In this document: one piece after another, positions 29,781 to 50,256 of the stretch
Numbering within the stretch: position 1 is the first letter of the stretch
Layout of the letters: each line of letters starts with the position of its first letter
Assembly: GCA_039184055.1 (NCBI GenBank)
Contig: JBCDBH010000002.1
Location: 1 to 54,125 of the forward strand
DNA from: Acidobacteriota bacterium
Lineage (GTDB): Bacteria > Acidobacteriota > Thermoanaerobaculia > Multivoradales > J023
Reading direction: 5' to 3'
DNA: 54,125 nucleotides
Position numbers and translations under genes: made by a program
The notes under the pieces: generated by a model
What the model saw: the letters and a program-made list of their open reading frames with translations, nothing else
What the model was told of the DNA's origin: nothing
Databases searched by the model: none

Positions 29781-29784
29781 GACA

Positions 29785-31714: not shown

Positions 31715-32400
31715 TCGTCCGTCGGATCGTCGTCGTCGGAGTCGTCGTGGCCAGTAGAGCGGGTGACGCGTGAGGTCGTGGCGGGGGTCGGCGTCGACAC
31801 GGTCGGTGCCGGTGGCACGTTGTCGTAGCGCCTCCCGTCGTCGTCCCCTTCGTCGCTGTTCTCGTCTTCCCCGGCCTCGTCTTCATCGTGCGTGTCGATC
31901 GTCAGCTCGGATGGTGTGCTCGCCATCGCGTCGTCGAGATGCGAATCGGGAGGCGTCGTGATCGACGTCGCGGCCACGGTCGCCGCGCTCGCGGTTGCGC
32001 GTTTCGTCATTGGCCGGCCGAGCATCGCCAACACCAAGCCGCAGGCGGTGTAGAGACCGAACCAACCGAGGGCAAGCTGCCACCAGGGCTCGTGTGGCTG
32101 TCGCGCGGCGAGCACGATGGTGATGACCAGGAGCGGGCCTCGGAAGATCCAGGCGATCCAGCCGGTCACCAAACCGTCCAGCCACCACGTGCCACTGCGA
32201 CCCTGAAGGAGGAGAAAGAGTGCGATCAGACCGACCGCTTCGAGTAGCCAGCTACCGATGACGATCTGGCCATCGATCGGGGCGCCGAGACGAGGAATCG
32301 TGCCCGTTTCGACATCCAAGCCGCTCAGATCGACCACAAAGCCGAAAAAAGCGAAGAGCAGAAGGAGGATGGGAAACGCCAGGGCGAGAAAACGAATCAC
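31711..32400 (-). CDS. Hypothetical integral membrane protein with acidic disordered tail
   Basis: About four hydrophobic segments then a Thr/Asp/Glu-rich tail; 4-nt overlap with the PKS gene. Confidence 0.65.
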   Translation of the reverse strand: MIRFLALAFPILLLLFAFFGFVVDLSGLDVETGTIPRLGAPIDGQIVIGSWLLEAVGLIALFLLLQGRSGTWWLDGLVTGWIAWIFRGPLLVITIVLAARQPHEPWWQLALGWFGLYTACGLVLAMLGRPMTKRATASAATVAATSITTPPDSHLDDAMASTPSELTIDTHDEDEAGEDENSDEGDDDGRRYDNVPPAPTVSTPTPATTSRVTRSTGHDDSDDDDPTDD

Positions 32401-34583: not shown

Positions 34584-36542
34584 TCAGCTCCCCAGCTCCA
34601 CTCGATCGCGAAAGTACTCCAAGGCTTCGGGGTTGGCGAGGGCGTGGGCGTTGTCGACGGCGCGGCCTTCGACGACGGCTTTGACGGCGAGCTCGGTGAT
34701 TTTGCCGCTTCGTGTCCTCGGCAGGTCGTCGACTTGGAGGATGACCCTGGGCACGTGATGGGGCGAGGCGTGATGACGGACGCGGAGTTTGATCTTTTCC
34801 CGTAGGTCGTCGTCGAGTCGGTGGCCGGGCTGCATGCGTACGAAGAGGACGATGCGGACGTCGTCTTGCCAGGTCTGGCCGATGACGAGGCTTTCGAGAA
34901 TAGTGTCGAAGGTCTCGACTTGGCGATAGATCTCGGCGGTGCCGATGCGGACGCCACCGGGGTTGAGGGTGGCGTCGCTCCGACCGTGGATGATGAGGCC
35001 GCCACGTTCGGTGAGGGTGGCCCAATCGCCGTGACGCCAGATGCCTTCGAAGTGGTCGAAGTAGGCGCGGTGGTAGCGCTCGCCCTCGGGGTCGTTCCAG
35101 AAGGCGACCGGCATGGAGGGGAACGGCTTGGTGCAGCAGAGCTCGCCGGGTTCGCCGACGATCGCCTCGGTGTCGGGGTCGAGGATTTCGACGCTCATCC
35201 CGAGTCCGCGTGTCTGCAGCTCGCCTCGATGGACTGGGCCGATGGGGTTGCCGAGCGCGAAGCAGGAGACGATGTCGGTGCCGCCGCTGATCGAGGCGAG
35301 GAGAAGATCGCCTTTGATCTCGCGGTAGACGTAGTCGTAGCTTTCGGGCAGCAAGGGCGAGCCCGTGGAGAGGATGGTCTGGAGCGCGCTGAGATCGTGG
35401 TCGCGACCGGGATGGAGATCGGCTTTTTCGATCAGGGCGAGGTATTTGGCGCTGGTGCCGAAGACGGTGAGACGTTCGGTGGCGGCGAGACGCCAGAGGA
35501 TGTCGGGCTCGGGTTTGACGATGGCACCGTCGTAGAGGACGACGGTGGCGCCGACGGCGAGGGCGCTGGCGAGCCAATTCCACATCATCCAGCCACAGGT
35601 GGTCACGTAGAGGATGCGATCGTTCGCACTTAGATCGGTGTGGAGGATGTGTTCTTTGAGGTGCTGAATGAGGGTGCCACCGGCGCCGTGCACCATGCAT
35701 TTCGGGAGCCCGGTCGTACCCGAGCTGTAGAGGATGTAGAGCGGGTGGTCGAACGGTAAGGGTTCGAAAGAAAGCTCGGCGTCGCGCTGGGCAAAATCCG
35801 CCCAGGTGACGGCATTCGGGACGTCGCACGTGCTTTCGCCATAGGGGGCGATGACGACGGTCTCGACGCTCGGTAGCTTCTCGACGATCGTCGCGACTTT
35901 GCTCAACGAGTCGTACGACTTGCCACTGTAGACATAGCCCCGCGCGGTGATCAGAACCTTGGGCTCGATTTGCCCGAAGCGATCGAGCACGCCTTCGACC
36001 CCGAAGTCGGGGCTGGACGAGCTCCACACCGCGCCGAGGCTGGTGGTGGCGAGCATGGCGATGATGGCTTCGGGGATGTTGGGTAGGAAACCGGCGACAC
36101 GGTCGCCCTGCCCGACCCCAGCGGCACGCAGACCCGCGGCGAAGGCGGCGACTTCTTGGCGTAGCGCTTCCCAGGTGAGGGTGCGGTGACGACCGTTTTC
36201 GTTCCAGGCGACGATGGCTTCTTTGTCGCCGTCCTCTCCTTCACCGTCTCGCCGCAGCAGGTTCTCGGCAAAGTTGAGCCGGGCTCCGGGGAAGAAACGT
36301 GCGCTCCGTGGATCGGAACCATCGCCCGGATCAAAAACGACACTTCCCATGTCGCCGTGGATGTCTCCGAGCTCCCACATACGACGCCAGAAGTCGGCGG
36401 GATGGTCGACCGACCACTGCCATAGCGAGGCCATGTCGGTGACGTCGGCTACGTCTTTGCCGACATCACGAAGAAAGCGGCCGAGACGTGTCGCCTCGGC
36501 CCGCTCAGGCGTGGGTTGCCACAGGGGAGTGGCGTCGTTCAT
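34584..36542 (-). CDS. Acetoacetate-CoA ligase
   Basis: FFPGARLNFAENLL, YSSGTTGLPKCMVH, GWMMWNW, SISGGTD, GRSDATLNPGGVRIG, LANPEAL. Confidence 0.93.
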   Translation of the reverse strand: MNDATPLWQPTPERAEATRLGRFLRDVGKDVADVTDMASLWQWSVDHPADFWRRMWELGDIHGDMGSVVFDPGDGSDPRSARFFPGARLNFAENLLRRDGEGEDGDKEAIVAWNENGRHRTLTWEALRQEVAAFAAGLRAAGVGQGDRVAGFLPNIPEAIIAMLATTSLGAVWSSSSPDFGVEGVLDRFGQIEPKVLITARGYVYSGKSYDSLSKVATIVEKLPSVETVVIAPYGESTCDVPNAVTWADFAQRDAELSFEPLPFDHPLYILYSSGTTGLPKCMVHGAGGTLIQHLKEHILHTDLSANDRILYVTTCGWMMWNWLASALAVGATVVLYDGAIVKPEPDILWRLAATERLTVFGTSAKYLALIEKADLHPGRDHDLSALQTILSTGSPLLPESYDYVYREIKGDLLLASISGGTDIVSCFALGNPIGPVHRGELQTRGLGMSVEILDPDTEAIVGEPGELCCTKPFPSMPVAFWNDPEGERYHRAYFDHFEGIWRHGDWATLTERGGLIIHGRSDATLNPGGVRIGTAEIYRQVETFDTILESLVIGQTWQDDVRIVLFVRMQPGHRLDDDLREKIKLRVRHHASPHHVPRVILQVDDLPRTRSGKITELAVKAVVEGRAVDNAHALANPEALEYFRDRVELGS

Positions 36543-37864
36543 CGATCGAGCGCCGGCTCGACTACGCCGGTGCATTCACCAAAGCCGATCCGCACGGCCC
36601 CGTCACGCTCACAATGACCGCGCAGGGTGATCTCGTCGCCGTCCTGGAGGAAGACACGACGCTCGCCGCCGATCTCGAGTGGCTCTTTGCCGGCCCAGGC
36701 CAGCTCGAGCAGGCAACCTCGGTTGTCCTTGTCGGGACCGGAGACGGTACCGCTGGCCAGGAGGTCGCCGGGTCGAAGGTTGCAGCCATTCGAGGCGTGA
36801 TGCGTGAGCATTTGTTGCGCGGTCCAGTACATGTGACGGAAGTTGCCGTGTGACAGACGCTGGGGTGCGTCGCCTCGGTTGCGCATGGCTTCCGTACGAA
36901 TGAGGACTTCCAGCTTCATGTCGATCCCGCCGGTTTGGCGATGCTCGTCACTGTCGAGATGCGGCAGCGGCTGAGGGTCGTCGCTGGCGCGCTCGAAGGC
37001 GGGCACGCGGAACGGAGCCAAGGCGTCCCGCGTCACGATCCACGGCGAGATGCTGGTGAGAAAGCTCTTGCCGAGGAAGGGGCCCAGCGGCTGGTATTCC
37101 CATTTCTGGATGTCACGCGCCGACCAGTCGTTGACCAGGCAAAAGCCGAAGATCTGATCGCCCGCGTCGCGGAGCGAAACCGGCTCGCCGAGCGCGTTGC
37201 CCTGGCCGACCACGAAGCCGACTTCGAGCTCGTAGTCGAGCCTAACCGACGGTGCGTAGACCGGTGGTCCGTCGTCGTTCTTCAGCTGGCCGTGCGGGCG
37301 TCGCACCGAGGTGCCACTCACCACCACCGAGGAGGCCCGACCGTGGTACCCCACCGGCAGGTGCTTGTAGTTGGGCATGAGCGGGTTGTCGGGGCGAAAC
37401 ATGCTGCCGACGTTGGTGGCATGATGGATCGAGCAATAAAAGTCGGTGTAGTCACCCACCGAGATCGGCAGGTGCATCGCCGCATCGCGCATCGGAATGA
37501 GCGCTTGCTCGATCGAGCTGCGAGCATCGCCCGGTCCCCCCGCGGCGAGCAGCAGGTGAAGGCGGCGGCGCAACGCGGTCCAGTGAATCGGACCGAGCGC
37601 GAGCAGAGGGTTGAGGTCGTCTGCCTCGGAGCACACGCGGCCAGCGACTTCGGCGTCGCCTTCGCAAAGCTCGAGATCGAAGCACCGCGATAAATCGAGG
37701 ATCTGGTCGCCGATCGCGACACCGATCCGGGGCCGATCATGACTGTCGTTGCGGCGGCTGAAGACACCGAACGGAAGGTTCTGGAGTGGAAAGTCGGTGT
37801 CGGCGTGATTCGCCGATTCGATCCAGCTATGACGTCCAGGGTCGTGAGTTTCGTCGAGGCTCAT
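36539..37864 (-). CDS. fahA: Fumarylacetoacetase
   Basis: DFPLQNLPFGVF, GDYTDFY, GYHGRASS, LDYELE, NDWSARDIQKWEYQPLGPF, IGFGECTG. Confidence 0.95.
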   Translation of the reverse strand: MSLDETHDPGRHSWIESANHADTDFPLQNLPFGVFSRRNDSHDRPRIGVAIGDQILDLSRCFDLELCEGDAEVAGRVCSEADDLNPLLALGPIHWTALRRRLHLLLAAGGPGDARSSIEQALIPMRDAAMHLPISVGDYTDFYCSIHHATNVGSMFRPDNPLMPNYKHLPVGYHGRASSVVVSGTSVRRPHGQLKNDDGPPVYAPSVRLDYELEVGFVVGQGNALGEPVSLRDAGDQIFGFCLVNDWSARDIQKWEYQPLGPFLGKSFLTSISPWIVTRDALAPFRVPAFERASDDPQPLPHLDSDEHRQTGGIDMKLEVLIRTEAMRNRGDAPQRLSHGNFRHMYWTAQQMLTHHASNGCNLRPGDLLASGTVSGPDKDNRGCLLELAWAGKEPLEIGGERRVFLQDGDEITLRGHCERDGAVRIGFGECTGVVEPALDR

Positions 37865-38790
37865 CTCTCTCCTCCAATGAGATGCAGATTCCGTAGCTCG
37901 TCGGTGGGCTCGTCGAATGAGCACGAGCCGTAGCCACGGGCAAAGTGGGTGCGAGCGGTGGCGAGCTGGTCAGCGTTGAGGTGGTATGTGGTGTCGAGGT
38001 TGGCATCTCGCCAGTGAAGGCCGGCATCGAATTCGACCTGTCGACCGTCGGATGTCTCGAGCATGTCGACCACCACCGGATGATCGGCGTCGATGACACC
38101 ACCGTGAACAAAGGCCGCGGCGGTGAAGAGACCGAGGAAGCTGTGCATGGTGCCCCGCGCACTATCGGCTTCGTAGGTGAGTGGATACTCACCCCGCAGC
38201 GCATGGTGCAGACCCGCGGTGGCTTTCCAGACGGCACCCGTGCTCTGCGCCGCGCTCAGAAAACGCACCAGCTCCGAGGTGCTCGGGAAGGCATCGGTGG
38301 TGATGCCTCCGGTGCGGATCTTGGCGGCGAGGCCGGGGCGTGATCGAGCATGGTCCGCGATCGTGCCGAGCAGCGTGGTCGGGTTGTCGTCGCCACGGTA
38401 GGGAATCTCGATGAAGACTTCCGTGGCGCGACGAAACCGGCTCGCGCGGTCGGCGATGTCGTCGCCGGTGCTCGCCTTGGTTTCGATCGCTTCGATGATG
38501 AGTCGAGGGTGGGTGAAGGCCTCGATGATTGCATCGGCGCTCGCGGCATCGTCACCGGTGAGCACCGAGAGCGGCCAGGGACGAGCGTCGTGTCCCGGTG
38601 GGACGGCTTCGAGCGCGGCGACCATCTCGTCGAGACGACCGGCCGGCACCACGAAACGTCCGAGCATCCACGCATCGTCGCTGTCACGGTGCGTGGCATA
38701 TGCGGCCACGGCGCGATCCATCGGAAGACGCGCCGGTGGAAAGAGACCGGCGTAGTCGATCAAGCCGGTAAAGAGAGCGGTTGCGGTCAT
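37861..38790 (-). CDS. Conserved hypothetical protein coupled to fahA
   Basis: GLIDYAGLFPPA, AKIRTGG, KATAGLHH, YGSCSFDEP look like conserved enzyme motifs; ATGA overlap with fahA. Confidence 0.75.
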   Translation of the reverse strand: MTATALFTGLIDYAGLFPPARLPMDRAVAAYATHRDSDDAWMLGRFVVPAGRLDEMVAALEAVPPGHDARPWPLSVLTGDDAASADAIIEAFTHPRLIIEAIETKASTGDDIADRASRFRRATEVFIEIPYRGDDNPTTLLGTIADHARSRPGLAAKIRTGGITTDAFPSTSELVRFLSAAQSTGAVWKATAGLHHALRGEYPLTYEADSARGTMHSFLGLFTAAAFVHGGVIDADHPVVVDMLETSDGRQVEFDAGLHWRDANLDTTYHLNADQLATARTHFARGYGSCSFDEPTDELRNLHLIGGER

Positions 38791-38805: not shown

Positions 38806-39489
38806 TCAGCGGGCGCTGCGTTCGGCCTCGTGGGTGAGAGCGTCGAGGGTGGTCTCGAGACGGATACGCATCGCTTCGAGCTCATCGTCGTCGAGACCAC
38901 GAGGCACGGTGACCGGTTCGCCCACCAGAACGACGACGCGCGCAAAGGGTTTGGGAACCAGAAGCTGATCCCAGGAACGCAGCTTCCAGGAACGTGAGAC
39001 GGCGATGCCCATGGGGAGGACCGGGCGTTCGGCCATCTGTGAGAGGACGGCGACGCCGATCTTGAAGACGTTCTTCGGGCCACGCGGGCCGTCGGGGGTC
39101 ATGACGGGCGACGAGCCGGCGCGGAGACGTCGGTAGATCTTTCGTAGCCCGCTTGTGCCGCCTCGTGAAGCCGACCCGCGCACGGTGGCGATGCCCCAGC
39201 CACGTGCCAAACGGTCCATCAGCTCACCGTCTCGCGACTGGCTCACCAGCAGGGTCAGATCGATCCCGCGTCGCATCAGCTCGTGGCGGAGCACCTGGGC
39301 GGCGAGGATCGAGCGGTCATGCCAGAAGCTGATGACCATGCCACCCTCCTCGAAGCCGGCGAAATGCTCGGCGCCCCGCGCCACATCGAGTCGACAGCTC
39401 CGACCGAGGGACCCGGTGAGGAGCCGGACGATCGGTGCGCCCATGGTGAGCAGGAGCCGGCCTCGCCGGCTGTTCGGATCGACTCGCAC
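38806..39489 (-). CDS. DUF374 / lysophospholipid acyltransferase family protein (LpxJ-like)
   Basis: ISFWH, LVSQSRDGE, VRGSASRGG, TPDGPRGP, SWDQLLVPKPF. Confidence 0.85.
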   Translation of the reverse strand: MRVDPNSRRGRLLLTMGAPIVRLLTGSLGRSCRLDVARGAEHFAGFEEGGMVISFWHDRSILAAQVLRHELMRRGIDLTLLVSQSRDGELMDRLARGWGIATVRGSASRGGTSGLRKIYRRLRAGSSPVMTPDGPRGPKNVFKIGVAVLSQMAERPVLPMGIAVSRSWKLRSWDQLLVPKPFARVVVLVGEPVTVPRGLDDDELEAMRIRLETTLDALTHEAERSAR

Positions 39490-39494
39490 GATGT

Positions 39495-39731
39495 CTAGAG
39501 GGCAGCCAGATAGGCGTCGATGTCGCCCACCGAGTCGAGCTTGGCGGCGTCGTCGTCGCTGATCTCGATATCGAGACGCTCTTCGAGCGTGACGAGCAGC
39601 TGGAGTGCTTTCGGTGAGTCGAAGCCGAGGTCGGCGACCAGATCCATCGACGGTTCGAGGTTGCTGGCTTCGTGGTCCGAGAGCTCGGCGATCACCGCGC
39701 GAGCCTGTCGTTGCATCTCGTTCTTATCCAT
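39495..39731 (-). CDS. Acyl carrier protein
   Basis: DLVADLGFDSPKALQLL...LEERLDIEISDDDA; 78 aa, acidic. Confidence 0.88.
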   Translation of the reverse strand: MDKNEMQRQARAVIAELSDHEASNLEPSMDLVADLGFDSPKALQLLVTLEERLDIEISDDDAAKLDSVGDIDAYLAAL

Positions 39732-39751
39732 CCCGATTTCCTGTGTCGATC

Positions 39752-41428
39752 CTAGATCAGACGGTCGAGCGCGCCGTCGAGATAGCGCTGGCGTAGCTCG
39801 CGTCGTTTGACTTTTCCGCTGGTGGTCTTGGGGATCCGGCCGCGACGCACGAACGCCACATCGGCCACGGTCAGCGAGAGCTCGCGTCCGATCCGTTTGC
39901 GGATCTCGTGATCGGCGTCGGCGAGCCGGTCGAGATCGGTGGCCACTTCGACCACCACCACGGCCTGCTCGCCTTGGCCACCGCCGTCGATCGTAAACGC
40001 ACCGCTGCGCAGTGCGCCACCGCCACCGACGACACTTTCGGCCAGCCACTCGAGCTCGTGTGGCATGACGTTGTGGCCTCGGATGATCAGCAGATCTTTG
40101 AGTCTACCCGTGAGATAGAGCTCTCCGTCGTGGAGAAAACCGAGGTCGCCGGTGTGCAGCCAGCCATCTCGGAGAGATTCCGCGGTGGCTTCGGGGTCGT
40201 TCCAATAGCCGGCGAACACGCTCGGGCCCGAGACACAGACCTCGCCGACCGCGCCATCCGGGCACACGCCACCATCCGGTTTGCGGATTTCGATTCGGGT
40301 ATCGGCGATCGGCTCGCCCACCGACACGACGTCCTCACCGCTCGGCGAGGGTCGCCACCGCGCGCCTCGGCCCTGGATATCGAAGGTCACCGCGAGGGTG
40401 CCTTCGGCGAGACCGTAGCAAGGGCGGAAGGCCTCGGGGCGAAAACCGGCGCCGGCGAAGCGGTGTTGAAACGCCTCGATGGTCTCGGGGCGGATCATCT
40501 CGGCACCGGTCATCGCGTTGTCCCAGCCGGCAAGGTCGAGGTCGGCGAGAACAGGGTCGTCGGTTGCGAGTCGCTCGACGCAGAGCTGGTAGCCGAAGTT
40601 GGGCGCGGGCGAGAAGACCCTTCCGTTGCGGCCGAGCTCACGGAGCCAGGTTTGAGGTCGCGCGAGAAAAGCCGTCGGAGGCAACAAAACGAGCTCGAGC
40701 CCACCCATCAGCGCCATGAACAAACACCCCACGAGGCCCATGTCGTGGTTGAGCGGGAGCCAGGCGACCACCGAGTCGGCGGTGTCGAAGACCGAGCCAC
40801 CACGAGGCGCGCCGATCGCACCCGCGCTCGCGTTGTTGTTGTGAATCACCGTGCGGTGGGGAATCATCACCGCCCTCGGGTGACCCGTCGAACCGCTGGT
40901 CAACTGCAGAAAGGCGATGTCGTCGGGATGCGGGGTGGCGGCCTCGACGGACGCGGCCGGCGTCTCGGCGAAGGGCGCGGCGGCCCGCGCGCGCGCGGCG
41001 GCGGTACGGAGAGACTCGGCGATCTCGGGATGGTCGTTGGCCAGGGTCTCGGCCTCGGTCGCGAAGCGGGGCGAGGTGAGCACGGTCGTGGGACCCAGCC
41101 GCTGAACCAAGCCGGCAAGACGCTTGATATGCGCTTCGCCGCCGCCGACCGCGCCTCCAGGGGCGAGCGCCACCGGCAAGGCTCCCAGCCACACGGCGCC
41201 GAGCCACGCTTCGAGCAGAGGCCACGAGGTGTTGAGGGCGACGATCACGCGATCACCGGGTCGGATACCGAGTGCCGCCCAGCGTCCCGCGGCGGTACGC
41301 ACCGTATCGAGCAGCTCGGCGTAGGTACGTCGCTCGCCTCGCCGGCCGCGACCATCGAACACCGTGATGCCACGATCGGGGTGATCGAGCGCGACACGGG
41401 TCAGCACGTTTGGCAGGGTCGTGCTCAT
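39752..41428 (-). CDS. Fatty acyl-AMP ligase (FAAL)
   Basis: FLQLTSGSTGHPR, AWLPLNHDMGLVG, APNFGY, CYGLAE, HTGDLG, IPKTTSGK. Confidence 0.9.
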   Translation of the reverse strand: MSTTLPNVLTRVALDHPDRGITVFDGRGRRGERRTYAELLDTVRTAAGRWAALGIRPGDRVIVALNTSWPLLEAWLGAVWLGALPVALAPGGAVGGGEAHIKRLAGLVQRLGPTTVLTSPRFATEAETLANDHPEIAESLRTAAARARAAAPFAETPAASVEAATPHPDDIAFLQLTSGSTGHPRAVMIPHRTVIHNNNASAGAIGAPRGGSVFDTADSVVAWLPLNHDMGLVGCLFMALMGGLELVLLPPTAFLARPQTWLRELGRNGRVFSPAPNFGYQLCVERLATDDPVLADLDLAGWDNAMTGAEMIRPETIEAFQHRFAGAGFRPEAFRPCYGLAEGTLAVTFDIQGRGARWRPSPSGEDVVSVGEPIADTRIEIRKPDGGVCPDGAVGEVCVSGPSVFAGYWNDPEATAESLRDGWLHTGDLGFLHDGELYLTGRLKDLLIIRGHNVMPHELEWLAESVVGGGGALRSGAFTIDGGGQGEQAVVVVEVATDLDRLADADHEIRKRIGRELSLTVADVAFVRRGRIPKTTSGKVKRRELRQRYLDGALDRLI

Positions 41429-41431
41429 CGC

Positions 41432-42271
41432 TCAGGCACCGATCGTCTCGGCTTCCGCCAGCTTGCTCGCCGCTTCGCGTCCCGCGGCGACCCGCTCGCC
41501 AGCGCGAATCGACTTGTCGAGTCGCCAGGTGGCTTCGTTTTCGAGGTCATGAAGCAAACGATCACTCTCCATACCGACGTCGGCCATTTCCGTGGCGAGG
41601 GCGTCGAACATGGGTTTGACCTTGGCGAGCACACCTCGTAGGCGGCCGTGGAGGGCGGTTCCATATTCCTCGCCGGCGAGGGAATCCGTGCCGAAAAGCT
41701 CGCTGAACGTGTCTTCTAAGTAGATGTGGTTGAAGCCTAGATGGCGCGCCTCGTCGAGCAGGATGCCGTCGGCGATCTCGGAGAGGGTCGCATCGAGATC
41801 GAGACGTCTGAACTCCTCGAGCACCAGCTTGGCCAACACTTCGGATACGAGAACGCCGGCGAGCCACTCCGCTGGCTCCTTCGAAGCGATACCGCTTTGA
41901 AAAAGGTAGCCGGCTGGGAAGCGACGAATCGACATCGGCTCGCGGTCGATGCGGCCATAGAAAAGGGTGAAGAGCTCGGTGTGACGTGCTTCATCGACCG
42001 CCCAGGTCGTCAGGTAGAGCTGGCTTTCCACTTCGGCTCGTTGTCCGAGCAGCGGAATTAGGGAAGAGACCGAGTAAAGCGCCGCCTGCTCGCCCATCAA
42101 GATCGGCGTCAGGACCCGCGCCAGCTGGTCTTTGAGGTGACGTTTGGTGAGGCGAGTCTGGGGCGCTTCCCAATTGAGATCGATCGCCGACCATTGAGAG
42201 CGTAGCGCCTTGTGCCAGATTTTCATGTGGCGCTTTTTCGATAGGTCGGGAAGAACTTTGTAGATACGCAT
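41432..42271 (-). CDS. Ferritin-like diiron enzyme (AurF/acyl-ACP desaturase-like)
   Basis: Ligand pattern GEQAA...DEARH...SEVLA...DEARH (E, ExxH, E, ExxH); QWSAIDLNW N-terminal motif. Confidence 0.75.
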   Translation of the reverse strand: MRIYKVLPDLSKKRHMKIWHKALRSQWSAIDLNWEAPQTRLTKRHLKDQLARVLTPILMGEQAALYSVSSLIPLLGQRAEVESQLYLTTWAVDEARHTELFTLFYGRIDREPMSIRRFPAGYLFQSGIASKEPAEWLAGVLVSEVLAKLVLEEFRRLDLDATLSEIADGILLDEARHLGFNHIYLEDTFSELFGTDSLAGEEYGTALHGRLRGVLAKVKPMFDALATEMADVGMESDRLLHDLENEATWRLDKSIRAGERVAAGREAASKLAEAETIGA

Positions 42272-42425: not shown

Positions 42426-45400
42426 ATGGGTTTGTTGGACTCGTACGTCTTTAAAGGCAATGAACGTTTCGAGGTGCAAGGCCACCTCGGTAGCGGTACC
42501 TCGGGCGATGTGTTCCGAGTCTTCGATCGCAAACGGCAGGCGGTTGTGGCGCTCAAGACGCTGCACAAGAGCGATCCGTCGGCGGTCATGCGATTCAAGA
42601 CCGAGTTTCGCGCCCTGACCGACGTCAACCATCCCAACCTGGTCCAGCTCTACGAGTTGCTCGCTGACGGTGATCGCTGGTACTTCACGATGGAGCTGGT
42701 CGAAGGGCTCGACTTCATCGACTATGTGCGTGCTCAACCGGCGGTCGGCGCCTACGAAACCGCGCGCTTTTATTCGATCCCCACACCCGTTGGCCCACCC
42801 GAGCCGGCGCGGCTTCGCATGGCGTTGCGACAATTGGCCGAGGGGCTCTTCGCGCTACACCGGGCGGGCAAGCTCCACTGCGACATCAAGCCATCGAATA
42901 TTCGCGTCACGCCCGATGGCCGTGTCGTGCTGCTCGACTTCGGGTTGGTCAAGGAGCTCTATGCCGGCCCCGCGGTGTACGAGACGATGGAAGGCGACAT
43001 CACCGGTACGCCCGCCTACATGTCACCCGAGCAGGCGGCGGGGCGGGAGATGACCGAGGCGAGCGACTGGTACAGCGTCGGTGTCGTGCTCTATGAAGCG
43101 CTGACCGGTCGCATTCCGTTCCGCGGTGGGTTCTTGCGGATTCTCACCGACAAACAGCGGAGCGATCCCGAGCCTCCGACGGCGGTCGCCAAGGAGGTAC
43201 CGGGCGATCTGTCCGAGCTCACCATGAGGCTGATGGCGCGGTCGGTCGACGAGCGTCTCACCGGGGTCAAGGCCTTGCGTGGTCTCGGTGCCGAGCCACC
43301 GGCTCCGTTCGACCGCATGGCCACGTCCACCCACTCGAGCAGCACCAGCGCGCCGTTCGTCGGGCGTCACCAGCAGCTCAACGTTCTGCTCGATGCGTTC
43401 GAATCAACCCGTACGGGTCGCACCGCGGTGGTCTTCGTTCACGGCAGCTCGGGTATGGGCAAGAGTGCCCTGGTGCGTCATTTCGTTCGCCAATTGAGTC
43501 AAGCGCACGACGAAGCCGTGCTGCTCACCGGTCGCTGTTACGAACGTGAGTCGGTGCCGTACAAGGCGCTCGATGCCTTGATCGATGCCCTGACGCGCTA
43601 TTTGCGCAAGCTCGAGGAGCGACAGGTCGAAGTGCTCCTGCCGACCAACGTCTTGGCGTTGGCGCGGCTCTTTCCATCTCTGCGGCGCGTTCCGGCCGTA
43701 TCAGGTTCCGAACGTCGTGTGCTCGAGATTCCCGATTCGCGCGAGCAGCGACGTCGGGCGTTTGGCGCTTTGCGTGAGCTGCTCGGTCGGCTCGCCGCGC
43801 GTGTGCCGCTGATCCTGTGGATCGATGATCTGCAATGGGGTGATCGTGACAGTGCCGCCTTGCTATCCGAGCTGTTGCGGCCACCCGATGCACCACCGCT
43901 TTTGCTCATCACCTGTTATCGCGCCGAGGAACGCGAGACGAGTCCGTTGCTCGCCAGCCTGCTCGCCGAGCGCTTCGACGATGGCGGGGCGAGCACCCTG
44001 GTGCGTGAGGTCGATCTACAAGAGTTGACGCCACCCGAGGCCGAACACCTCGCGCTCGCCCTGCTCGGCGAGGAGTCTCCAGTGGGGCGCTCGTTGGCCA
44101 AGGCCATCGGCGCCGAATCGGGTGGCAGTCCGTTCTTTATCGACGAGCTCGTGCGTTGGGCCAAGGCTGAAGCCGGATTGGACCAGGCCGGGGAGCGCAC
44201 CCTGTCGGCCGAGGTCGAGCGCGCGGTCCGGCAGCGGATGACCCTCGACAATCTCATTCAAGGTCGACTCGATCGTCTACCGTCCGAAGCACGGCGTTTG
44301 CTCACCGCGGTGGCCGTGGCGGGTCGCCCGGTCGACCTCGAAGCGGTGCGCAGTGCCGCCGAGCTCGGCAGCGAGGTCCAGGCGGCGATCGCCGCGTTGC
44401 GCGGCGCGAGCCTGGTGCGGATGCGCAGTCTTCGTGATCGCGAAGAAATCGAGCCGTACCACGATCGAATCCGCGAAACCGTGGTGCGAGGTCTCGAAGC
44501 TGAGGCGCTCGCGCACGTGCATCGTCGTTTGGCGCGTGCCCTCGAAGCCACCCGTCATGCCGATCCTGAAACCCTCGCCACCCATTATCTGGCCGCTGGG
44601 GAGCGGCAGCGGGCCGCCGAGCTGGCGGTGACCGCTGGCGACCAAGCCGCCGAGGCTCTGGCGTTCGACCGCGCGGCTCGGCTGTATCGGATCGCTCTCG
44701 ATCTCGAAGCTCACGAGCGGGACGCCCGCCGCGAGATCGAGGTCAAGCTCGGCAATGCTCTGGTCAACGCCGGTCGGGGTGCCGAGGCGGCACCGGTCTA
44801 CCTCGCCGCCGCCGAAGGCGCGCGAGCTGGCGACGCGCTCGAATGGCGTCGTCGCGCCGCCGAGCAATGGTTGATCAGTGGTCATATCGACGGCGGCATC
44901 GAGACCGTCAACACCGTTCTCTCCTTGGTCGGTATGGAGCTTCCGCCGACGCCACGGCGCACCATCTTCGCGCTCGCTGGCTTGCTCATCCGTCTCAAGT
45001 TGCGGGGGATCGATTTCGAAGAACGCGACGCCACCCAAATCGCCGCCGAGGAGCTGATCCGGATCGACACCTGCTGGTCGGTCGCGATCGGTCTCGGTTT
45101 GGTGGACACCATTCGTGGCATGGTGTTCGGCAAACGAAATCTGCTCTTGGCGCTCGAAGCCGGTGAACCGTACCGCGTGGCCCGTGCCCTCGCGATCGAG
45201 GCCGCCTATACCTCGACGGGTGGCACCAAGACCGCTGGACGTACCGAGCAGCTGGTGCGGGCATCGATGGCGCTCGCCGAGAGAGTCGGTCACCCACACG
45301 CGCTCGGTCTCGCCAACATGACCGCCGGTATGGCGGCCTATCTCGGCGGTCAGTGGAAAAAGGCGTGCGAGCTTCTCGAACGCGCCGAAGCGATCCTGCG

Positions 45401-46277
45401 TGAACGCTGCACCGGCGTCACCTGGGAGATCGACACTGCGATGTCCTTCCAGATGCGCTCGCTTCTGTTGATCGGTGACCTCGCCGAGATCAAGAAACGT
45501 CTGCCGCGCTTTCTCAAGGACGTCGCCGACAAAGGTGATCTCTACGCCGAAACCAATCTGCGTAGCCGGGCGTCATGGATGGCCATGTTGATCGAAGACC
45601 ATCACGAAGACGCCTTGGCCGAGGTCAGCGCGGCCCTCGAAGGCTGGTCCCAAGAGGGCTTTCATCTTCAACACTATTGGCGCATGACGGGAATCATCGA
45701 GATCGCGCTTTATCGAGGTGATGCGGTCGCCGCCTGGGCGCAGATCGAAGAAGACTGGCCGAAGATGGAGCGCTCGCTTTTCCTGCGGATTCAATTCACC
45801 CGTCACGAAGCCTACTTCCTTCGCGGTCGCGCCGCCCTCGCGGCGGCGGTCATCGCTGATGACGCCAAAGAGCGTGATGAGCGTTTGTCCGTGGTCGACG
45901 AAGAAATCAAACGACTGAAAAAAGAAAAGCTCTTTTGGGCCGAGCCGCTCGCTCTTTTGCTTACCGCCGGCGCGCTCACAGTGCGAGGCAAAGATGGCGC
46001 CACGGCTGTGCTCGCCGATGCCGCATCAGGCCTGGCCGCGGCCGACATGGAGCTCTACGCGACCGTCGCTCGTCGGCGTCGAGGACAGCTCCTCGGTGAT
46101 GGTCAGGGGCACCGATTGATACGTGAGTCGGACGAGTGGATGGTGAACCATGGCGTCGTCGTGCCCGAGCGGATGGCCGATGTCGTCGCGCCTGGAGTGT
46201 GGAGTAGCCCGGATGGCTCACCAGCCCGCCGTGACGACGGACCGCGGCTGCAGCGTGGAAACGCACGCAATCTCTAG
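42426..46277 (+). CDS. Hanks Ser/Thr kinase fused to P-loop NTPase (STAND-like) and helical repeats
   Basis: LGSGTSG, VALK, HCDIKPSN, DFGL, GTPAYMSPEQ; Walker A GSSGMGKS; Walker B WIDDLQW; GGSPFF; HDRIRE. Confidence 0.9.
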   Translation: MGLLDSYVFKGNERFEVQGHLGSGTSGDVFRVFDRKRQAVVALKTLHKSDPSAVMRFKTEFRALTDVNHPNLVQLYELLADGDRWYFTMELVEGLDFIDYVRAQPAVGAYETARFYSIPTPVGPPEPARLRMALRQLAEGLFALHRAGKLHCDIKPSNIRVTPDGRVVLLDFGLVKELYAGPAVYETMEGDITGTPAYMSPEQAAGREMTEASDWYSVGVVLYEALTGRIPFRGGFLRILTDKQRSDPEPPTAVAKEVPGDLSELTMRLMARSVDERLTGVKALRGLGAEPPAPFDRMATSTHSSSTSAPFVGRHQQLNVLLDAFESTRTGRTAVVFVHGSSGMGKSALVRHFVRQLSQAHDEAVLLTGRCYERESVPYKALDALIDALTRYLRKLEERQVEVLLPTNVLALARLFPSLRRVPAVSGSERRVLEIPDSREQRRRAFGALRELLGRLAARVPLILWIDDLQWGDRDSAALLSELLRPPDAPPLLLITCYRAEERETSPLLASLLAERFDDGGASTLVREVDLQELTPPEAEHLALALLGEESPVGRSLAKAIGAESGGSPFFIDELVRWAKAEAGLDQAGERTLSAEVERAVRQRMTLDNLIQGRLDRLPSEARRLLTAVAVAGRPVDLEAVRSAAELGSEVQAAIAALRGASLVRMRSLRDREEIEPYHDRIRETVVRGLEAEALAHVHRRLARALEATRHADPETLATHYLAAGERQRAAELAVTAGDQAAEALAFDRAARLYRIALDLEAHERDARREIEVKLGNALVNAGRGAEAAPVYLAAAEGARAGDALEWRRRAAEQWLISGHIDGGIETVNTVLSLVGMELPPTPRRTIFALAGLLIRLKLRGIDFEERDATQIAAEELIRIDTCWSVAIGLGLVDTIRGMVFGKRNLLLALEAGEPYRVARALAIEAAYTSTGGTKTAGRTEQLVRASMALAERVGHPHALGLANMTAGMAAYLGGQWKKACELLERAEAILRERCTGVTWEIDTAMSFQMRSLLLIGDLAEIKKRLPRFLKDVADKGDLYAETNLRSRASWMAMLIEDHHEDALAEVSAALEGWSQEGFHLQHYWRMTGIIEIALYRGDAVAAWAQIEEDWPKMERSLFLRIQFTRHEAYFLRGRAALAAAVIADDAKERDERLSVVDEEIKRLKKEKLFWAEPLALLLTAGALTVRGKDGATAVLADAASGLAAADMELYATVARRRRGQLLGDGQGHRLIRESDEWMVNHGVVVPERMADVVAPGVWSSPDGSPARRDDGPRLQRGNARNL

Positions 46278-48496: not shown

Positions 48497-50256
48497 GACG
48501 ACTCTCCCTGGCCACGAACGAGGGTCGTGTAGCGACCGGTCGCGACTCTTCGGAACCACTCACAGCCCCGGTGGGGCCAACATGCCTCGACGTCCACGGC
48601 TGGCGCGGCTTGGCCGAGACGGACCGTGACCCGTGGATCGGACGCCGACGCGTAGCTGCCGTCGGTGGCGACCCGGCGCAGCAGCGACGGTTGGCCGTCG
48701 CGGTGCACGCGAAGGATCGTTCCCAAGGCGTCACGCACGGCACCGTCGCCGACTGGAATCACCGCGCGAATCCCGACCCACGTCGACGGTTCGGGTTGTC
48801 CGAGCTGGATCAATGCCCGCGCGGGCCCGTGGTTGGTGGTGATGACGACGTCGACATCGCCATCGTTGTCGAGATCGCCAAAGGCGGCGCCCCGGCCCAC
48901 TTCGGAACGAGCAAACGCGGGACCGGCCGTGGCGCTGACCTCGTCGTAGACCAAGGCCTCGGCCCGACGGCGAAAGACCTGGTCGCGTTGGTGAAAGGGG
49001 AACGTATCGCCCTGGAGGAGGAGATCAGGAATCACTTTGACATCGCCGTTGACCGCCAAAATATCGAGATGACCGTCGCCATCGAAGTCGTGAAATCCGA
49101 CACCGAAGCCCGTCATGGGAAGACTCGACGCGGCGAGGCCGACAGCGTCGGTGACGTCGGTGTAGGCGACCTCGTCGTTACGGTAGAAGGTATGCGTCTC
49201 GCCATCGAGGTGCGTGAGCAGAAGGTCGAAATCGCCATCTTCATCGGCGTCCCCGACCGCGATCCCCATCGAGGCCTCGGCGGCGCCCCGGCCGTTGACG
49301 GCGAGGCCGTAGGTCGTGGCCTGGTCGACCCATGTGCCGTCCTCCCCCAGGATCCACAGCTGATTGATGAATTGATCGTTGGCGACATAGAGCGCCGGCC
49401 GGGATACGCCAGCATCGTCCGTGAGCTCGAGCGCGACCGCGCCGAGTCCGGCTAGGGGAAGGGCCGAGTCGAGGCCGGTTTTGCTGGTGATGTCTTCGAA
49501 ACGGCCGTTGCCGCGATTGTGGAAGAAACGGTCGGTTTGCGGCGTGAACACGGTGGGGTTGCAATAGTCGGGGCCACCGAGATCGGTCGTACAGCGACGG
49601 TGCAGACCGCGTGACACGTTCAAATAACGACCGACATAGAGATCGAGCAGGTCGTCGGGGTCGAGGTCGAGAAAGACCGCCGCCACGCTCCAGCCGACAT
49701 CCCCGGTCGCGCTCGTCGCAGTCGCGTTCTCGAAGGTGCCGTCACCGCGATTGCGCCACAGCTGATTGCCGGGAAGGGCTTCGCCCGGAGCGCTCCAATT
49801 GGTGACATAGAGGTCGGTCCAGCCATCGTTGTCGATATCGCCCGTCATCACGCCCATGCCATAACCACGCGCATCGATGCCGCTGCTCTGCGTCACATCG
49901 GTGAAGACTGGGCCGTCGCCGTCGAGATCATTACGCAGCAGCCGATCGACGTGCTCGGGATTGGGAACACAGTCACGGGTCAGACACCGTCCTTGCACCA
50001 GGTAGATGTCGAGATCGCCGTCGTTGTCGAAGTCGAACAGGGCGGCGCCCGCTCCATAGAGCTCGGGCATGAAATACTCGCCTGCGAAGCCGCCCTCATG
50101 GTGGAAGTCCAGGTCGAGCTCCGCGAGCAGCGTTCGAGAGGTCGAAACACTCGTAGCGGGCGATGACACCGGCTGTTCGGGAATGACGTCGCCACATGCG
50201 ATGAGGCATGCGCTGGCCGCGACCAGTGTTGGCCAAGAGGAGAGCGATAGGCTCAT
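48493..50256 (-). CDS. CRTAC1/ASPIC-UnbV family protein with FG-GAP repeats
   Basis: FDFDNDGDLDIYLV, GDIDNDGWTDLYV, GRGAAFGDLDNDGDVD, GSYASASDPR; lipobox LIAC. Confidence 0.88.
   Translation of the reverse strand: MSLSLSSWPTLVAASACLIACGDVIPEQPVSSPATSVSTSRTLLAELDLDFHHEGGFAGEYFMPELYGAGAALFDFDNDGDLDIYLVQGRCLTRDCVPNPEHVDRLLRNDLDGDGPVFTDVTQSSGIDARGYGMGVMTGDIDNDGWTDLYVTNWSAPGEALPGNQLWRNRGDGTFENATATSATGDVGWSVAAVFLDLDPDDLLDLYVGRYLNVSRGLHRRCTTDLGGPDYCNPTVFTPQTDRFFHNRGNGRFEDITSKTGLDSALPLAGLGAVALELTDDAGVSRPALYVANDQFINQLWILGEDGTWVDQATTYGLAVNGRGAAEASMGIAVGDADEDGDFDLLLTHLDGETHTFYRNDEVAYTDVTDAVGLAASSLPMTGFGVGFHDFDGDGHLDILAVNGDVKVIPDLLLQGDTFPFHQRDQVFRRRAEALVYDEVSATAGPAFARSEVGRGAAFGDLDNDGDVDVVITTNHGPARALIQLGQPEPSTWVGIRAVIPVGDGAVRDALGTILRVHRDGQPSLLRRVATDGSYASASDPRVTVRLGQAAPAVDVEACWPHRGCEWFRRVATGRYTTLVRGQGESS

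What the first reader, a model, noticed from the sequence alone, without database searches (positions are those of the whole stretch)
38806..42271. Diiron enzyme-FAAL-ACP-DUF374 acyltransferase operon: candidate pathway installing a tailored fatty acid on lipid A or another lipid
Seen: four genes with gaps of 3-20 nt and no PKS/NRPS or thioesterase. Established: ligase+ACP+dimetal enzyme triads modify ACP-bound fatty acids (JamABC alkyne formation with a membrane desaturase, CylABC halogenation, soluble acyl-ACP desaturases); DUF374 includes LpxJ, a lipid A secondary acyltransferase; dedicated ACP/acyltransferase pairs exist (AcpXL/LpxXL). Inference: load, oxidise (desaturate, hydroxylate or halogenate), then transfer to an envelope lipid. 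I do not recognise this combination as described.
Basis: partly seen in the sequence, partly recalled or inferred. Interest (0 to 1): 0.75.

Follow-up and report, generated by a model that had tools for sequence, protein, structure and literature searches.

The report
Fatty-acid tailoring and lipid-acylation gene cassette
Four tightly packed genes appear to capture a free fatty acid, oxidise it with a two-iron enzyme and attach it to a cell-envelope lipid, a combination kept in three little-studied bacterial phyla and not found described in print.

Summary

Among 48 related loci with enough downstream DNA:
- 29 have FAAL directly after the diiron gene.
- 16 have the full four-gene cassette (Acidobacteriota and Verrucomicrobiota).
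- 0 of 9 Planctomycetota loci have DUF374.
- 17 have the diiron gene alone.

So the diiron-FAAL-ACP triad is the core, and DUF374 is a lineage-specific fourth partner.

The diiron protein has a 2-His/4-carboxylate site. It lacks the CylC-halogenase and AurF motifs. Its nearest solved relatives are R2lox and aldehyde-deformylating oxygenase, both of which bind long acyl chains.

DUF374 keeps all six residues needed for LpxJ activity. Relatives are fused to LpxK or WaaA. One Holophagae locus has an LpxL-type acyltransferase after FAAL-ACP instead, and Opitutaceae cassettes sit beside Mla and LpxL genes.

Best reading, inferred and untested: salvage, hydroxylation or desaturation, then transfer to lipid A or another envelope lipid. 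I rate it a new variant of a known kind. My searches found no description.

The parts
41432..42271 (-). Soluble ferritin-like diiron (or Mn/Fe) oxidase, 279 aa. It has a 2-His/4-carboxylate site: E61, E94xxH97, E144, E174xxH177.
   Evidence: Translation is. Alignment A1 shows E61, D93-E94, R96-H97, D173-E174 and R176-H177 invariant across 25 sequences; position 144 is E in close relatives and D in distant ones. Pfam AurF scores 27.5 bits, below its cut-off. NCBIfam R2lox scores 43.7 bits, far below its cut-off. A PDB profile search gives R2lox at 3e-15 and ADO at about 2e-9 as best hits. No transmembrane segment was found.
39752..41428 (-). Fatty acyl-AMP ligase (FAAL), 558 aa.
   Evidence: Pfam AMP-binding scores 204 bits. 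The best NCBIfam model is 'fatty acyl-AMP ligase' NF006624 at 387 bits, below its cut-off of 600. PDB hits: E. coli FAAL 3PBK at 2.8e-80, Legionella FAAL 3KXW at 1.8e-74, then FadD23/32/28. CoA ligases score 1e-27 or weaker.
39495..39731 (-). Dedicated acyl carrier protein, 78 aa, with phosphopantetheine serine S39 in a DSP motif.
   Evidence: Pfam PP-binding scores 40 bits. The best NCBIfam ACP model scores 48 bits, below the cut-off for AcpP-type models. D38-S39 are invariant in 24 cassette ACPs. pI is 4.05.
38806..39489 (-). DUF374 / LpxJ-family acyltransferase, 227 aa, very basic (pI 11.2), with no transmembrane segment.
   Evidence: Pfam PF04028 scores 82 bits against a cut-off of 26.8. 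W56, H57, D87, D133, W173 and D174 are invariant in 23 sequences. They match the six residues required in R. typhi LpxJ (PMC6148475 passages). The GTG start is supported by the N-terminal 'RVDP' motif shared with L009 and L007.

Best explanation
This is a self-contained operon of three to four genes that tailors a salvaged fatty acid and hands it to an envelope lipid.

Step 1 (family assignment shown, activity inferred): the FAAL adenylates a free medium- or long-chain fatty acid. It loads the acid on the phosphopantetheine arm of the dedicated ACP, bypassing CoA.

Step 2 (inferred): the soluble 2-His/4-carboxylate dimetal oxidase uses O2 and an external reductant to hydroxylate or desaturate the acyl chain. 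It is related to the fatty-acid-binding R2lox proteins and to aldehyde-deformylating oxygenase. The substrate is most likely the ACP-bound chain. Halogenation and N-oxygenation are unlikely.

Step 3 (inferred): the basic, catalytically intact LpxJ-type DUF374 acyltransferase moves the tailored acyl group from the ACP to a hydroxyl of an envelope glycolipid. The most likely acceptor is lipid A or a precursor, as a secondary acyl chain. In lineages without DUF374, another acyltransferase takes this role: an LpxL-type enzyme in one Holophagae locus, and an unlinked enzyme in Planctomycetota.

My odds are about 0.75 that diiron, FAAL and ACP work together on one fatty acyl substrate. They are about 0.5 that DUF374 takes its acyl group from this ACP, and about 0.35 that the acceptor is lipid A.
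For: Gene identities.

Operon packing:
- Gaps are 3, 20 and 5 nt in the window.
- In 18 related cassettes the gaps are mostly under 100 nt.

Synteny, for 48 close loci with at least 3600 nt downstream:
- FAAL+ACP+DUF374: 16.
- FAAL+ACP: 7.
- FAAL only: 6.
- ACP only: 2.
- None: 17.
- The full cassette occurs in Acidobacteriota or unclassified MAGs (10 loci, short ones included) and in Verrucomicrobiota (8).
- Flanks are unrelated.

Diiron chemistry:
- The 2-His/4-carboxylate set is invariant.
- There is no third His four residues before D173; that position is G169.
- PMC12101540 (passages) says most diiron hydroxylases use 2 His/4 carboxylates, CylC-type halogenases 3 His/3 Glu, and AurF 3 His/4 carboxylates.
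- Nearest solved relatives are R2lox and ADO. R2lox copurifies with C16/C18 hydroxy fatty acids (PMC9314684 passages).
- Atlas look-alikes include acyl-ACP desaturase clusters at 0.92-0.93, a lead only.

DUF374:
- All six residues needed for LpxJ are invariant.
- Of 8 longer relatives (35-46% identity), 6 are fused to LpxK (3) or the Kdo transferase WaaA (3).

Envelope context:
- L057 (Holophagae) has FAAL-ACP-LpxL-like on one strand, with the LpxL-like gene at PF03279 178 bits. The diiron gene there sits next to an O-antigen-ligase-like gene, an MsbA-like ABC transporter (491 bits) and a GT2 gene.
- Five Opitutaceae loci carry MlaA-C-D-F-E next to the cassette. Four of them also have an LpxL-like gene between the Mla genes and the cassette.
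- An LpxL-like gene lies divergent, 181 nt from the diiron gene, in L064.
- The ACP is acidic (pI 4.05) and DUF374 basic (pI 11.2).
Against: - DUF374 is missing within 8 kb in 13 of 29 FAAL-linked loci, including all 9 informative Planctomycetota loci.
- The diiron gene has none of the partners next to it in 17 of 48 loci. The partnership is therefore not obligate, or it works in trans.
- At least one MAG has two diiron paralogs, one in a cassette and one alone (L003/L033, 70% identity).
- The window has no lipid A gene near the cassette.
- Cassette DUF374s group apart from the LpxK/WaaA-fused forms, though support is only 80. Their acceptor could differ.
- R2lox and ADO bind a free fatty acid or aldehyde with its head group at the metals. 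The oxidase may therefore act before ACP loading rather than on acyl-ACP.
- No ferredoxin or reductase is encoded in the cassette.
- FAAL and ACP score below NCBIfam's curated cut-offs.
- The stretch aligned to the insertion region of E. coli FAAL is 18 residues shorter.
- The envelope-gene neighbours come from a few lineages and were not tested against chance.
- Nothing here is experimental.
Confidence: 0.4

Rival explanations
1. Reversed order. The oxidase acts first on the free fatty acid, head group at the metal site as in R2lox and ADO. It would carry out, for example, alpha/beta-hydroxylation or desaturation near C1-C3. The FAAL then activates the product, loads it on the ACP, and DUF374 or another acyltransferase uses it.
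For: The nearest solved relatives, R2lox and ADO, bind free acids or aldehydes at the dimetal centre (PMC9314684 passages). Gene order is oxidase, ligase, ACP, acyltransferase. 17 of 48 loci have the oxidase without an adjacent ACP.
Against: ACP lies next to the diiron gene without a FAAL in three loci (L044, L050, L054), which points to a direct oxidase-ACP relation. The known FAAL-ACP-dimetal triads act on the ACP thioester (NocO on NocM-bound dodecanoyl, PMC12101540 passages).
Confidence: 0.2
2. Membrane repair or recycling, like a split Aas system. FAAL plus ACP re-activate free fatty acids released in the envelope. DUF374 re-acylates a lysophospholipid or other lyso-lipid rather than lipid A. 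The oxidase conditions or marks the chain.
For: DUF374 belongs to the lysophospholipid-acyltransferase superfamily; sources name relatives that way, and there is a weak PlsC hit at E 0.054. The Mla phospholipid-trafficking genes adjoin the cassette in five Opitutaceae loci. Cassette DUF374s fall outside the LpxK/WaaA-fused group. That E. coli Aas fuses an acyl-ACP synthetase to an acyltransferase is recalled, not checked here.
Against: All characterised DUF374 enzymes named in the papers I read are lipid A acyltransferases (PMC6148475). Six of eight fused relatives are joined to lipid A enzymes. An LpxL-type enzyme substitutes for DUF374 in L057. A recycling role does not explain an O2-dependent oxidase.
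Confidence: 0.15
3. DUF374 is the housekeeping LpxJ of these genomes and only a neighbour of the triad. The triad makes a tailored fatty acid for some other product.
For: DUF374 is absent from 13 of 29 FAAL-linked loci and from all Planctomycetota loci. In L008 a DUF374 protein seems to lie on the same contig but more than 8 kb away; this rests only on equal contig lengths, P0305 versus P0079.
Against: The same tight order, with gaps mostly under 100 nt, is kept in two phyla with unrelated flanks. A different lipid A-type acyltransferase takes the same position after FAAL-ACP in L057.
Confidence: 0.15
4. A CylC-like halogenating, or secondary-metabolite, starter module feeding the nearby type III PKS.
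For: FAAL-ACP-dimetal enzyme triads start cylindrocyclophane-type pathways (PMC8406957 and PMC12101540 passages). A type III PKS cluster lies 6.4 kb away in the window and also near L003.
Against: The CylC motifs and ligand set are absent. The type III PKS cluster has its own FAAL and ACP. T3PKS occurs near the cassette in only 1 of 80 loci besides the window. No PKS, NRPS or thioesterase was found in the flank survey.
Confidence: 0.04

Closest known systems
CylA/CylB/CylC and NocL/NocM/NocO (cyanobacterial FAAL-ACP-dimetal halogenase triads)
   Same: A stand-alone FAAL, a dedicated ACP and a soluble ferritin-like dimetal enzyme are encoded together. The enzyme acts on the ACP-bound fatty acyl chain (PMC12101540 and PMC8406957 passages).
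   Different: The window protein has D-E-x-x-H twice and 2 His/4 carboxylates. It lacks QExxH, HxxDExxH and the 3 His/3 Glu set with an open halide site. It is found outside cyanobacteria. Its output is an LpxJ-type acyltransferase rather than a PKS.
JamA/JamB/JamC-type alkyne cassettes
   Same: FAAL loads a fatty acid on an ACP, and an oxidase modifies the tethered chain (FAAL review PMC11837247 passages).
   Different: That the Jam desaturase is an integral-membrane enzyme is recalled, not checked here. The window enzyme is soluble and ferritin-like with no transmembrane segment. Jam feeds a PKS/NRPS line.
LpxJ (DUF374) lipid A late acyltransferases of Helicobacter, Campylobacter, Wolinella and Rickettsia
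   Same: Same Pfam family. All six residues needed for Rickettsia LpxJ activity are conserved at nearly the same positions.
   Different: In the papers I read, the characterised LpxJ enzymes are not described with a private ACP, FAAL or oxidase. Cassette DUF374s form their own group apart from LpxK/WaaA-fused relatives, at weak support. Identity to characterised LpxJ could not be measured because no reference sequence was on hand.
   Same: A private ACP delivers a special acyl chain to a dedicated lipid A secondary acyltransferase.
   Different: There the chain is built on the ACP by dedicated FAS enzymes, and the acyltransferase is of the LpxL family. Here the chain would be salvaged by a FAAL and oxidised by a dimetal enzyme.
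[quoted passage not shown]
   Same: These are the nearest solved relatives by profile search (3e-15 and about 2e-9). They share the ferritin-like fold with 2 His/4 carboxylates and a channel for long aliphatic chains (PMC9314684 passages).
   Different: Scores are far below the family cut-offs (NCBIfam R2lox 43.7 bits against a cut-off of 194). No Tyr sits at the position aligned with the R2lox cross-link tyrosine (alignment). The family forms one isolated 50%-identity cluster.
E. coli Aas (acyl-ACP synthetase fused to a lysophospholipid acyltransferase); recalled, not checked
   Same: An AMP-forming ligase, an ACP and an LPLAT-superfamily acyltransferase re-use free fatty acids for membrane lipids.
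   Different: Aas uses the housekeeping ACP, has a PlsC-type HX4D domain and has no oxidase.

Membership tests
Fatty acyl-AMP ligase (FAAL) | ANL-superfamily adenylation fold, with best similarity to proven FAALs rather than acyl-CoA ligases | tested here: met
   Pfam AMP-binding scores 204 bits. PDB hits: EcFAAL 3PBK at 2.8e-80, LpFAAL 3KXW at 1.8e-74 and FadD23/32/28, against 1e-27 or weaker for CoA ligases. The best NCBIfam model is a FAAL, though at 387 bits against a cut-off of 600.
Fatty acyl-AMP ligase (FAAL) | FAAL-specific insertion / helix that blocks the CoA pocket (PMC8460268 passages) | tested here: inconclusive
   In the alignment to EcFAAL, the stretch over roughly residues 345-385 of EcFAAL is 18 residues shorter in the window protein. 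Without a structure I could not place the insertion or the helix.
Fatty acyl-AMP ligase (FAAL) | Transfers to holo-ACP and rejects CoA | not testable with these tools
   The only support is context: an ACP gene 20 nt downstream, and the FAAL-ACP pairing kept in 23 of 48 informative loci.
LpxJ / DUF374 lipid A late acyltransferase | PF04028 domain | tested here: met
   82 bits against a cut-off of 26.8.
LpxJ / DUF374 lipid A late acyltransferase | Six residues required for activity in R. typhi LpxJ (W60, H61, D86, D132, W172, D173) and no HX4D motif | tested here: met
   W56, H57, D87, D133, W173 and D174 are invariant in 23 aligned sequences. The residue list comes from PMC6148475 passages. 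The correspondence is by motif and position, not by direct alignment to the Rickettsia protein.
LpxJ / DUF374 lipid A late acyltransferase | [quoted passage not shown] | not testable with these tools
   Indirect only: relatives fused to LpxK or WaaA, and LPS genes near the cassette in some lineages.
CylC-type dimetal-carboxylate halogenase | QExxH and HxxDExxH motifs; 3 His/3 Glu ligand set with an open site for halide (PMC12101540 passages) | tested here: not met
   The motifs are VDEARH (93-97) and LLDEARH (171-177). Position 169, four residues before D173, is Gly. The third carboxylate E144 is present. Only H97 and H177 are invariant histidines.
AurF/CmlI-type N-oxygenase (PF11583) | Score above the Pfam cut-off, and a 3 His/4 carboxylate site | tested here: not met
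   27.5 bits against a cut-off of 29.6, covering only residues 82-191. There is no third ligand His. No AurF or CmlI chain appears among PDB hits up to E = 1.
R2-like ligand-binding oxidase | Family-level sequence match, and the Tyr-Val ether cross-link pair | tested here: not met
   The best NCBIfam R2lox model scores 43.7 bits against a cut-off of 194 and covers only residues 9-110. The column aligned with the cross-link Tyr holds A138/G139 (alignment; register uncertain by one residue).
Soluble acyl-ACP desaturase (PF03405) | Pfam FA_desaturase_2 match | tested here: not met
   No Pfam hit at E up to 0.01. The DesA2 structure 1ZA0 scores only E = 0.22. Atlas feature look-alikes at 0.92-0.93 are leads only.
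Acyl carrier protein | PP-binding fold with the conserved Asp-Ser phosphopantetheine site | tested here: met
   Pfam scores 40 bits against a cut-off of 20.8. D38-S39 are invariant in 24 sequences. The protein falls below the AcpP equivalog cut-offs, so it is a dedicated ACP and not the housekeeping one.

The most novel reading that the evidence does not exclude
The cassette is a previously unrecognised way of decorating lipid A (or a related outer-membrane glycolipid). A free fatty acid is salvaged by a FAAL onto a private ACP. It is hydroxylated or desaturated there by the first R2lox/ADO-like dimetal oxidase known to work on an acyl-ACP. It is then installed as a secondary acyl chain by an LpxJ-type enzyme (or by LpxL-type enzymes in other lineages). 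This would also give the enigmatic R2lox-like branch of ferritin-like oxidases its first physiological role.
Probability: 0.25. Interest if true: 0.75.

Novelty: new variant of a known kind. Interest (0 to 1): 0.55.

Why it matters
Lipid A acylation sets outer-membrane permeability and how LPS is sensed. The known routes use housekeeping acyl-ACP, or chains built on AcpXL (the latter recalled). A route that takes a scavenged and oxidatively tailored fatty acid would be a third logic.

It would be found in Acidobacteriota, Verrucomicrobiota and Planctomycetota, whose envelope chemistry is barely known.

The oxidase is also of interest to enzymologists. It is a compact, soluble, highly conserved family (52-78% identity across three phyla, and one isolated 50%-identity cluster among 1.84 billion representatives). 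It sits between R2lox, whose function is still open, and ADO. Its gene context offers a defined candidate substrate, which makes the chemistry directly testable.

Tried and rejected
- **OlsH/OlsI ornithine-lipid pathway.** Suggested by a weak NCBIfam ACP hit. It uses a GH3-like enzyme and an alpha/beta hydrolase, with no ACP, FAAL or DUF374 in the text (abstract and passages). Rejected.
- **CylC halogenase and AurF N-oxygenase membership.** Rejected on motifs.
- **The 309-aa protein, fumarylacetoacetase and acetoacetate-CoA ligase that follow DUF374** (15-nt gap). These are co-conserved only in the window, L002, L007 and L009. In L007 they are separated from DUF374 by another gene. Treated as a separate unit.
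- **Link to the type III PKS cluster.** Rejected.
- **Plasmid copies.** None found (tblastn).
- **Rfam families and tRNAs in the window.** None found.
- **Promoter and terminator scan.** Nothing above the shuffled background.
- **Shared upstream motif.** None was obvious by eye in 22 upstream regions.
- **Fused DUF374-FAAL or DUF374-ACP forms.** None among the 8 longer relatives found. This is weak evidence, because only 8000 candidates were scored.
- **Gene calling.** My first two home-made gene callers mis-called the window and were replaced. Even the final caller missed the diiron gene in 12 loci. All synteny counts therefore rest on six-frame HMM searches and not on gene calls.
- Complex prediction of oxidase with ACP was unavailable.
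- **Left unchecked.** Only 80 of the 238 relatives found in genome contigs could be examined.

Full report
**Observation.** The region 38806-42271 holds four genes on the minus strand:
- A 279-aa protein, 42271..41435, with AGGAG six bases before its ATG.
- A 558-aa AMP-binding enzyme, 41428..39755.
- A 78-aa carrier protein, 39731..39498.
- A 227-aa DUF374 protein, GTG 39489..38809.

The gaps are 3, 20 and 5 nt. Pfam and NCBIfam give these scores:
- AMP-binding, 204 bits. The best NCBIfam model is 'fatty acyl-AMP ligase' at 387 bits, below its cut-off of 600.
- PP-binding, 40 bits.
- DUF374, 82 bits.
- For the first protein, only weak hits: AurF at 27.5 bits (cut-off 29.6) and R2-like ligand-binding oxidase at 43.7 bits (cut-off 194).

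The window is a chromosomal stretch of a high-GC diderm bacterium. It carries mreBCD, PBP2, RodA, a BamD-like gene and a SurA-like gene. Its closest relatives are labelled Thermoanaerobaculia or Acidobacteriota.

**The oxidase.** Alignment of 25 close and distant relatives shows E61, D93-E94-x-R96-H97 and D173-E174-x-R176-H177 invariant. A carboxylate at 144 is E in close relatives and D in distant ones. This is a 2-His/4-carboxylate dimetal site. Only H97 and H177 are invariant histidines, and the position four residues before D173 is glycine.

The paper that defines CylC-type halogenases (PMC12101540, passages read) gives their signature as QExxH plus HxxDExxH, with 3 His/3 Glu and an open site. 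It gives AurF as 3 His/4 carboxylates and most diiron hydroxylases as 2 His/4 carboxylates. So halogenation and N-oxygenation are unlikely here, and C-H hydroxylation or desaturation is the default.

A profile search of all PDB sequences puts R2lox proteins first (6QRZ at 3e-15, 4HR0, 7QBK, 3EE4). Cyanobacterial aldehyde-deformylating oxygenases come second, at about 2e-9. DesA2 scores 0.22, and no AurF chain appears up to E = 1. R2lox has no established function but copurifies with C16/C18 hydroxy fatty acids (PMC9314684, passages). One abstract reports alkane hydroxylation by a Geobacillus R2lox (PMC10867098, search listing only).

The protein has no transmembrane segment.

The family is compact:
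- 442 clusters at 90% identity.
- Only one full-length cluster at 50% identity among 1.84 billion representatives.
- The next full-length relatives are at 25-37% identity.

**Ligase, ACP and acyltransferase.**
- Ligase: it matches proven FAAL structures far better than CoA ligases (3PBK at 2.8e-80 and 3KXW at 1.8e-74, against 1e-27 or weaker). The FAAL-specific insertion could not be judged, because the aligned stretch is 18 residues shorter than in E. coli FAAL.
- ACP: D38-S39 are invariant in 24 cassette ACPs. It scores below the AcpP cut-offs, so it is a dedicated carrier.
- DUF374: W56, H57, D87, D133, W173 and D174 are invariant in 23 sequences. These match, almost position for position, the six residues whose mutation abolishes Rickettsia LpxJ activity (PMC6148475, passages).
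- DUF374 is very basic (pI 11.2) and the ACP acidic (pI 4.05).

**Conservation.** One scan of genome contigs with the oxidase alignment found 238 relatives, of which 80 loci were kept:
- 65 close loci (52-78% identity), from Acidobacteriota (Thermoanaerobaculia, Holophagae), Planctomycetota and Verrucomicrobiota (Opitutaceae).
- 15 distant loci (30-38% identity), from Binatia, Bacillota and others.

I built HMMs of the four proteins from the loci and searched all six frames. Results for the 48 close loci with at least 3600 nt downstream:

| Genes downstream of the oxidase gene | Loci |
|---|---|
| FAAL+ACP+DUF374 | 16 |
| FAAL+ACP | 7 |
| FAAL only | 6 |
| ACP only | 2 |
| None | 17 |

- In two of the 17 'none' loci (L030, L057), FAAL-ACP lie 3 kb upstream on the same strand.
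- The 17 shorter loci gave 2, 3, 2, 1 and 9 in the same order.
- The full cassette is in 10 acidobacterial or unclassified loci and 8 verrucomicrobial loci.
- None of the 9 informative planctomycete loci has a DUF374 within 8 kb.
- The 15 distant loci have none of the three partners.
- Gaps inside the 18 cassettes are mostly under 100 nt.
- Flanks are unrelated from clade to clade.
- On a tree of the oxidase, context follows clades. The cassette appears in several separate clades.
- One MAG has two paralogs at 70% identity, one in a cassette and one alone.

The conserved core is therefore oxidase-FAAL-ACP, with DUF374 as a frequent, lineage-bound fourth gene.

**Which acceptor?** Several lines point to the outer-membrane glycolipid pathway, but none is proof.

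1. Among proteins longer than 398 aa related to the window DUF374 (35-46% identity), 3 of 8 are fused to LpxK and 3 of 8 to the Kdo transferase WaaA.
2. In the Holophagae locus L057 the gene right after FAAL-ACP is not DUF374 but an LpxL-type 'lipid A biosynthesis acyltransferase' (PF03279, 178 bits). The oxidase there sits beside an O-antigen-ligase-like gene, an MsbA-like exporter (491 bits, cut-off 602) and a GT2 gene.
3. In five Opitutaceae loci the cassette adjoins MlaA-C-D-F-E. In four of them an LpxL-like gene lies between the Mla genes and the cassette.
4. An LpxL-like gene lies 181 nt from the oxidase gene in a planctomycete locus. LpxL-like genes are within 8 kb in 8 of 65 loci.

Against this:
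- The window itself has no lipid A gene nearby.
- Cassette DUF374s group apart from the fused forms, at support of only 80.
- The neighbours come from few lineages, and I did not test them against chance.

**Mechanism.** My reading is salvage, tailoring, then transfer.
- FAAL loads a free fatty acid on the private ACP.
- The soluble dimetal oxidase hydroxylates or desaturates it with O2 and an unlinked reductant.
- DUF374 passes it to lipid A or another envelope lipid.
- Other acyltransferases serve in lineages that lack DUF374.

All steps after the family assignments are inferred.

The main rival keeps the parts but reverses the first two steps, with the oxidase acting on the free acid as R2lox and ADO bind their ligands. 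Others are an Aas-like lysolipid re-acylation system, and mere adjacency of a housekeeping LpxJ. A CylC-like or PKS-linked role is unlikely.

**Comparison and novelty.** The logic of the triad is that of CylABC/NocLMO and JamABC. The logic of 'private ACP plus lipid A acyltransferase' is that of AcpXL/LpxXL (recalled).

The oxidase belongs to neither the CylC, AurF, R2lox, ADO nor acyl-ACP desaturase family by the tests listed. The pairing of such a triad with an LpxJ-type enzyme was not found in print. The searches were:
- 'DUF374': 26 papers, none on FAAL.
- 'LpxJ': 35 papers, 15 listed.
- 'PF11583'.
- Two multi-term searches.
- The 2025 FAAL review, passages only.

Subscription papers and supplements were not seen. 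I rate it a new variant of a known kind, with interest 0.55.

**Limits.**
- Only 80 of 238 relatives were examined.
- No whole genomes were available, so I could not count DUF374 or LpxL/M copies.
- No characterised LpxJ or CylC sequence was on hand for direct alignment.

Noticed in passing
window 26890-32400, minus strand: A self-contained type III PKS cluster. In order it holds: an unknown 229-aa protein, a type III PKS (30659-31714), an ICMT-family methyltransferase (30084-30686), a second ACP-like ORF (about 29785-30069, DSL motif), a second FAAL (28017-29780) and a geranylgeranyl-reductase-like flavoprotein (26890-28242). It looks like an alkylresorcinol or alkylpyrone-type pathway.
   Followed up: partly
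window 34587-38790, minus strand: An unknown 309-aa protein has no Pfam or NCBIfam hit. Its Atlas look-alikes are auto-named 'transaldolase family'. It starts 15 nt after DUF374 and is followed by fumarylacetoacetase and acetoacetate-CoA ligase. The trio recurs only in L002, L007 and L009. It may be an unrecognised step of homogentisate or tyrosine breakdown.
   Followed up: partly
L066-L080 (Binatia, Bacillota, Thermodesulfobacteriota and other MAGs), around position 8000: The distant relatives of the oxidase (30-38% identity) sit next to an HMG-CoA reductase gene in 14 of 15 loci. In Binatia the next genes are a YegS-like lipid kinase, an alpha/beta hydrolase and a methyltransferase. Two loci have a CDP-alcohol phosphatidyltransferase upstream. 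This is a different, also lipid-flavoured context.
   Followed up: partly
L003:8001-8834 and L033:707-1501: Two oxidase paralogs (70% identity) occur in one MAG, one inside a full cassette and one with no partner genes nearby. L016 and L062 come from another single MAG and may be a second case.
   Followed up: partly
window 42426-46277, plus strand: A 1283-aa Ser/Thr kinase with an AAA_16/STAND-type ATPase region is transcribed divergently from the cassette. A homologous kinase holds the same place in L003 and L010 only.
   Followed up: no
L059:8001-10567 and L015:3719-5409: In L059 both the oxidase and the FAAL match their HMMs in two pieces in different frames. In L015 the FAAL is split. These are frameshifts that are either decay or assembly errors.
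   Followed up: no
L017:11639-12877 and L041:11398-12807: Mutator-family transposase genes lie within 3 kb of the oxidase gene or the triad. Together with the cross-phylum similarity of the cassette, this fits horizontal movement.
   Followed up: no
window 50069-53921: Two Mur-ligase-like genes on opposite strands flank an ATP-grasp-like gene. The order is unusual for peptidoglycan synthesis genes, and I did not look further.
   Followed up: no
L019:11467-13182 and the cluster mate in L023: In planctomycete loci that lack DUF374, a PMT_2-family (ArnT-like) membrane glycosyltransferase lies about 600 nt after the ACP gene. It is another envelope-glycolipid type of neighbour.
   Followed up: no
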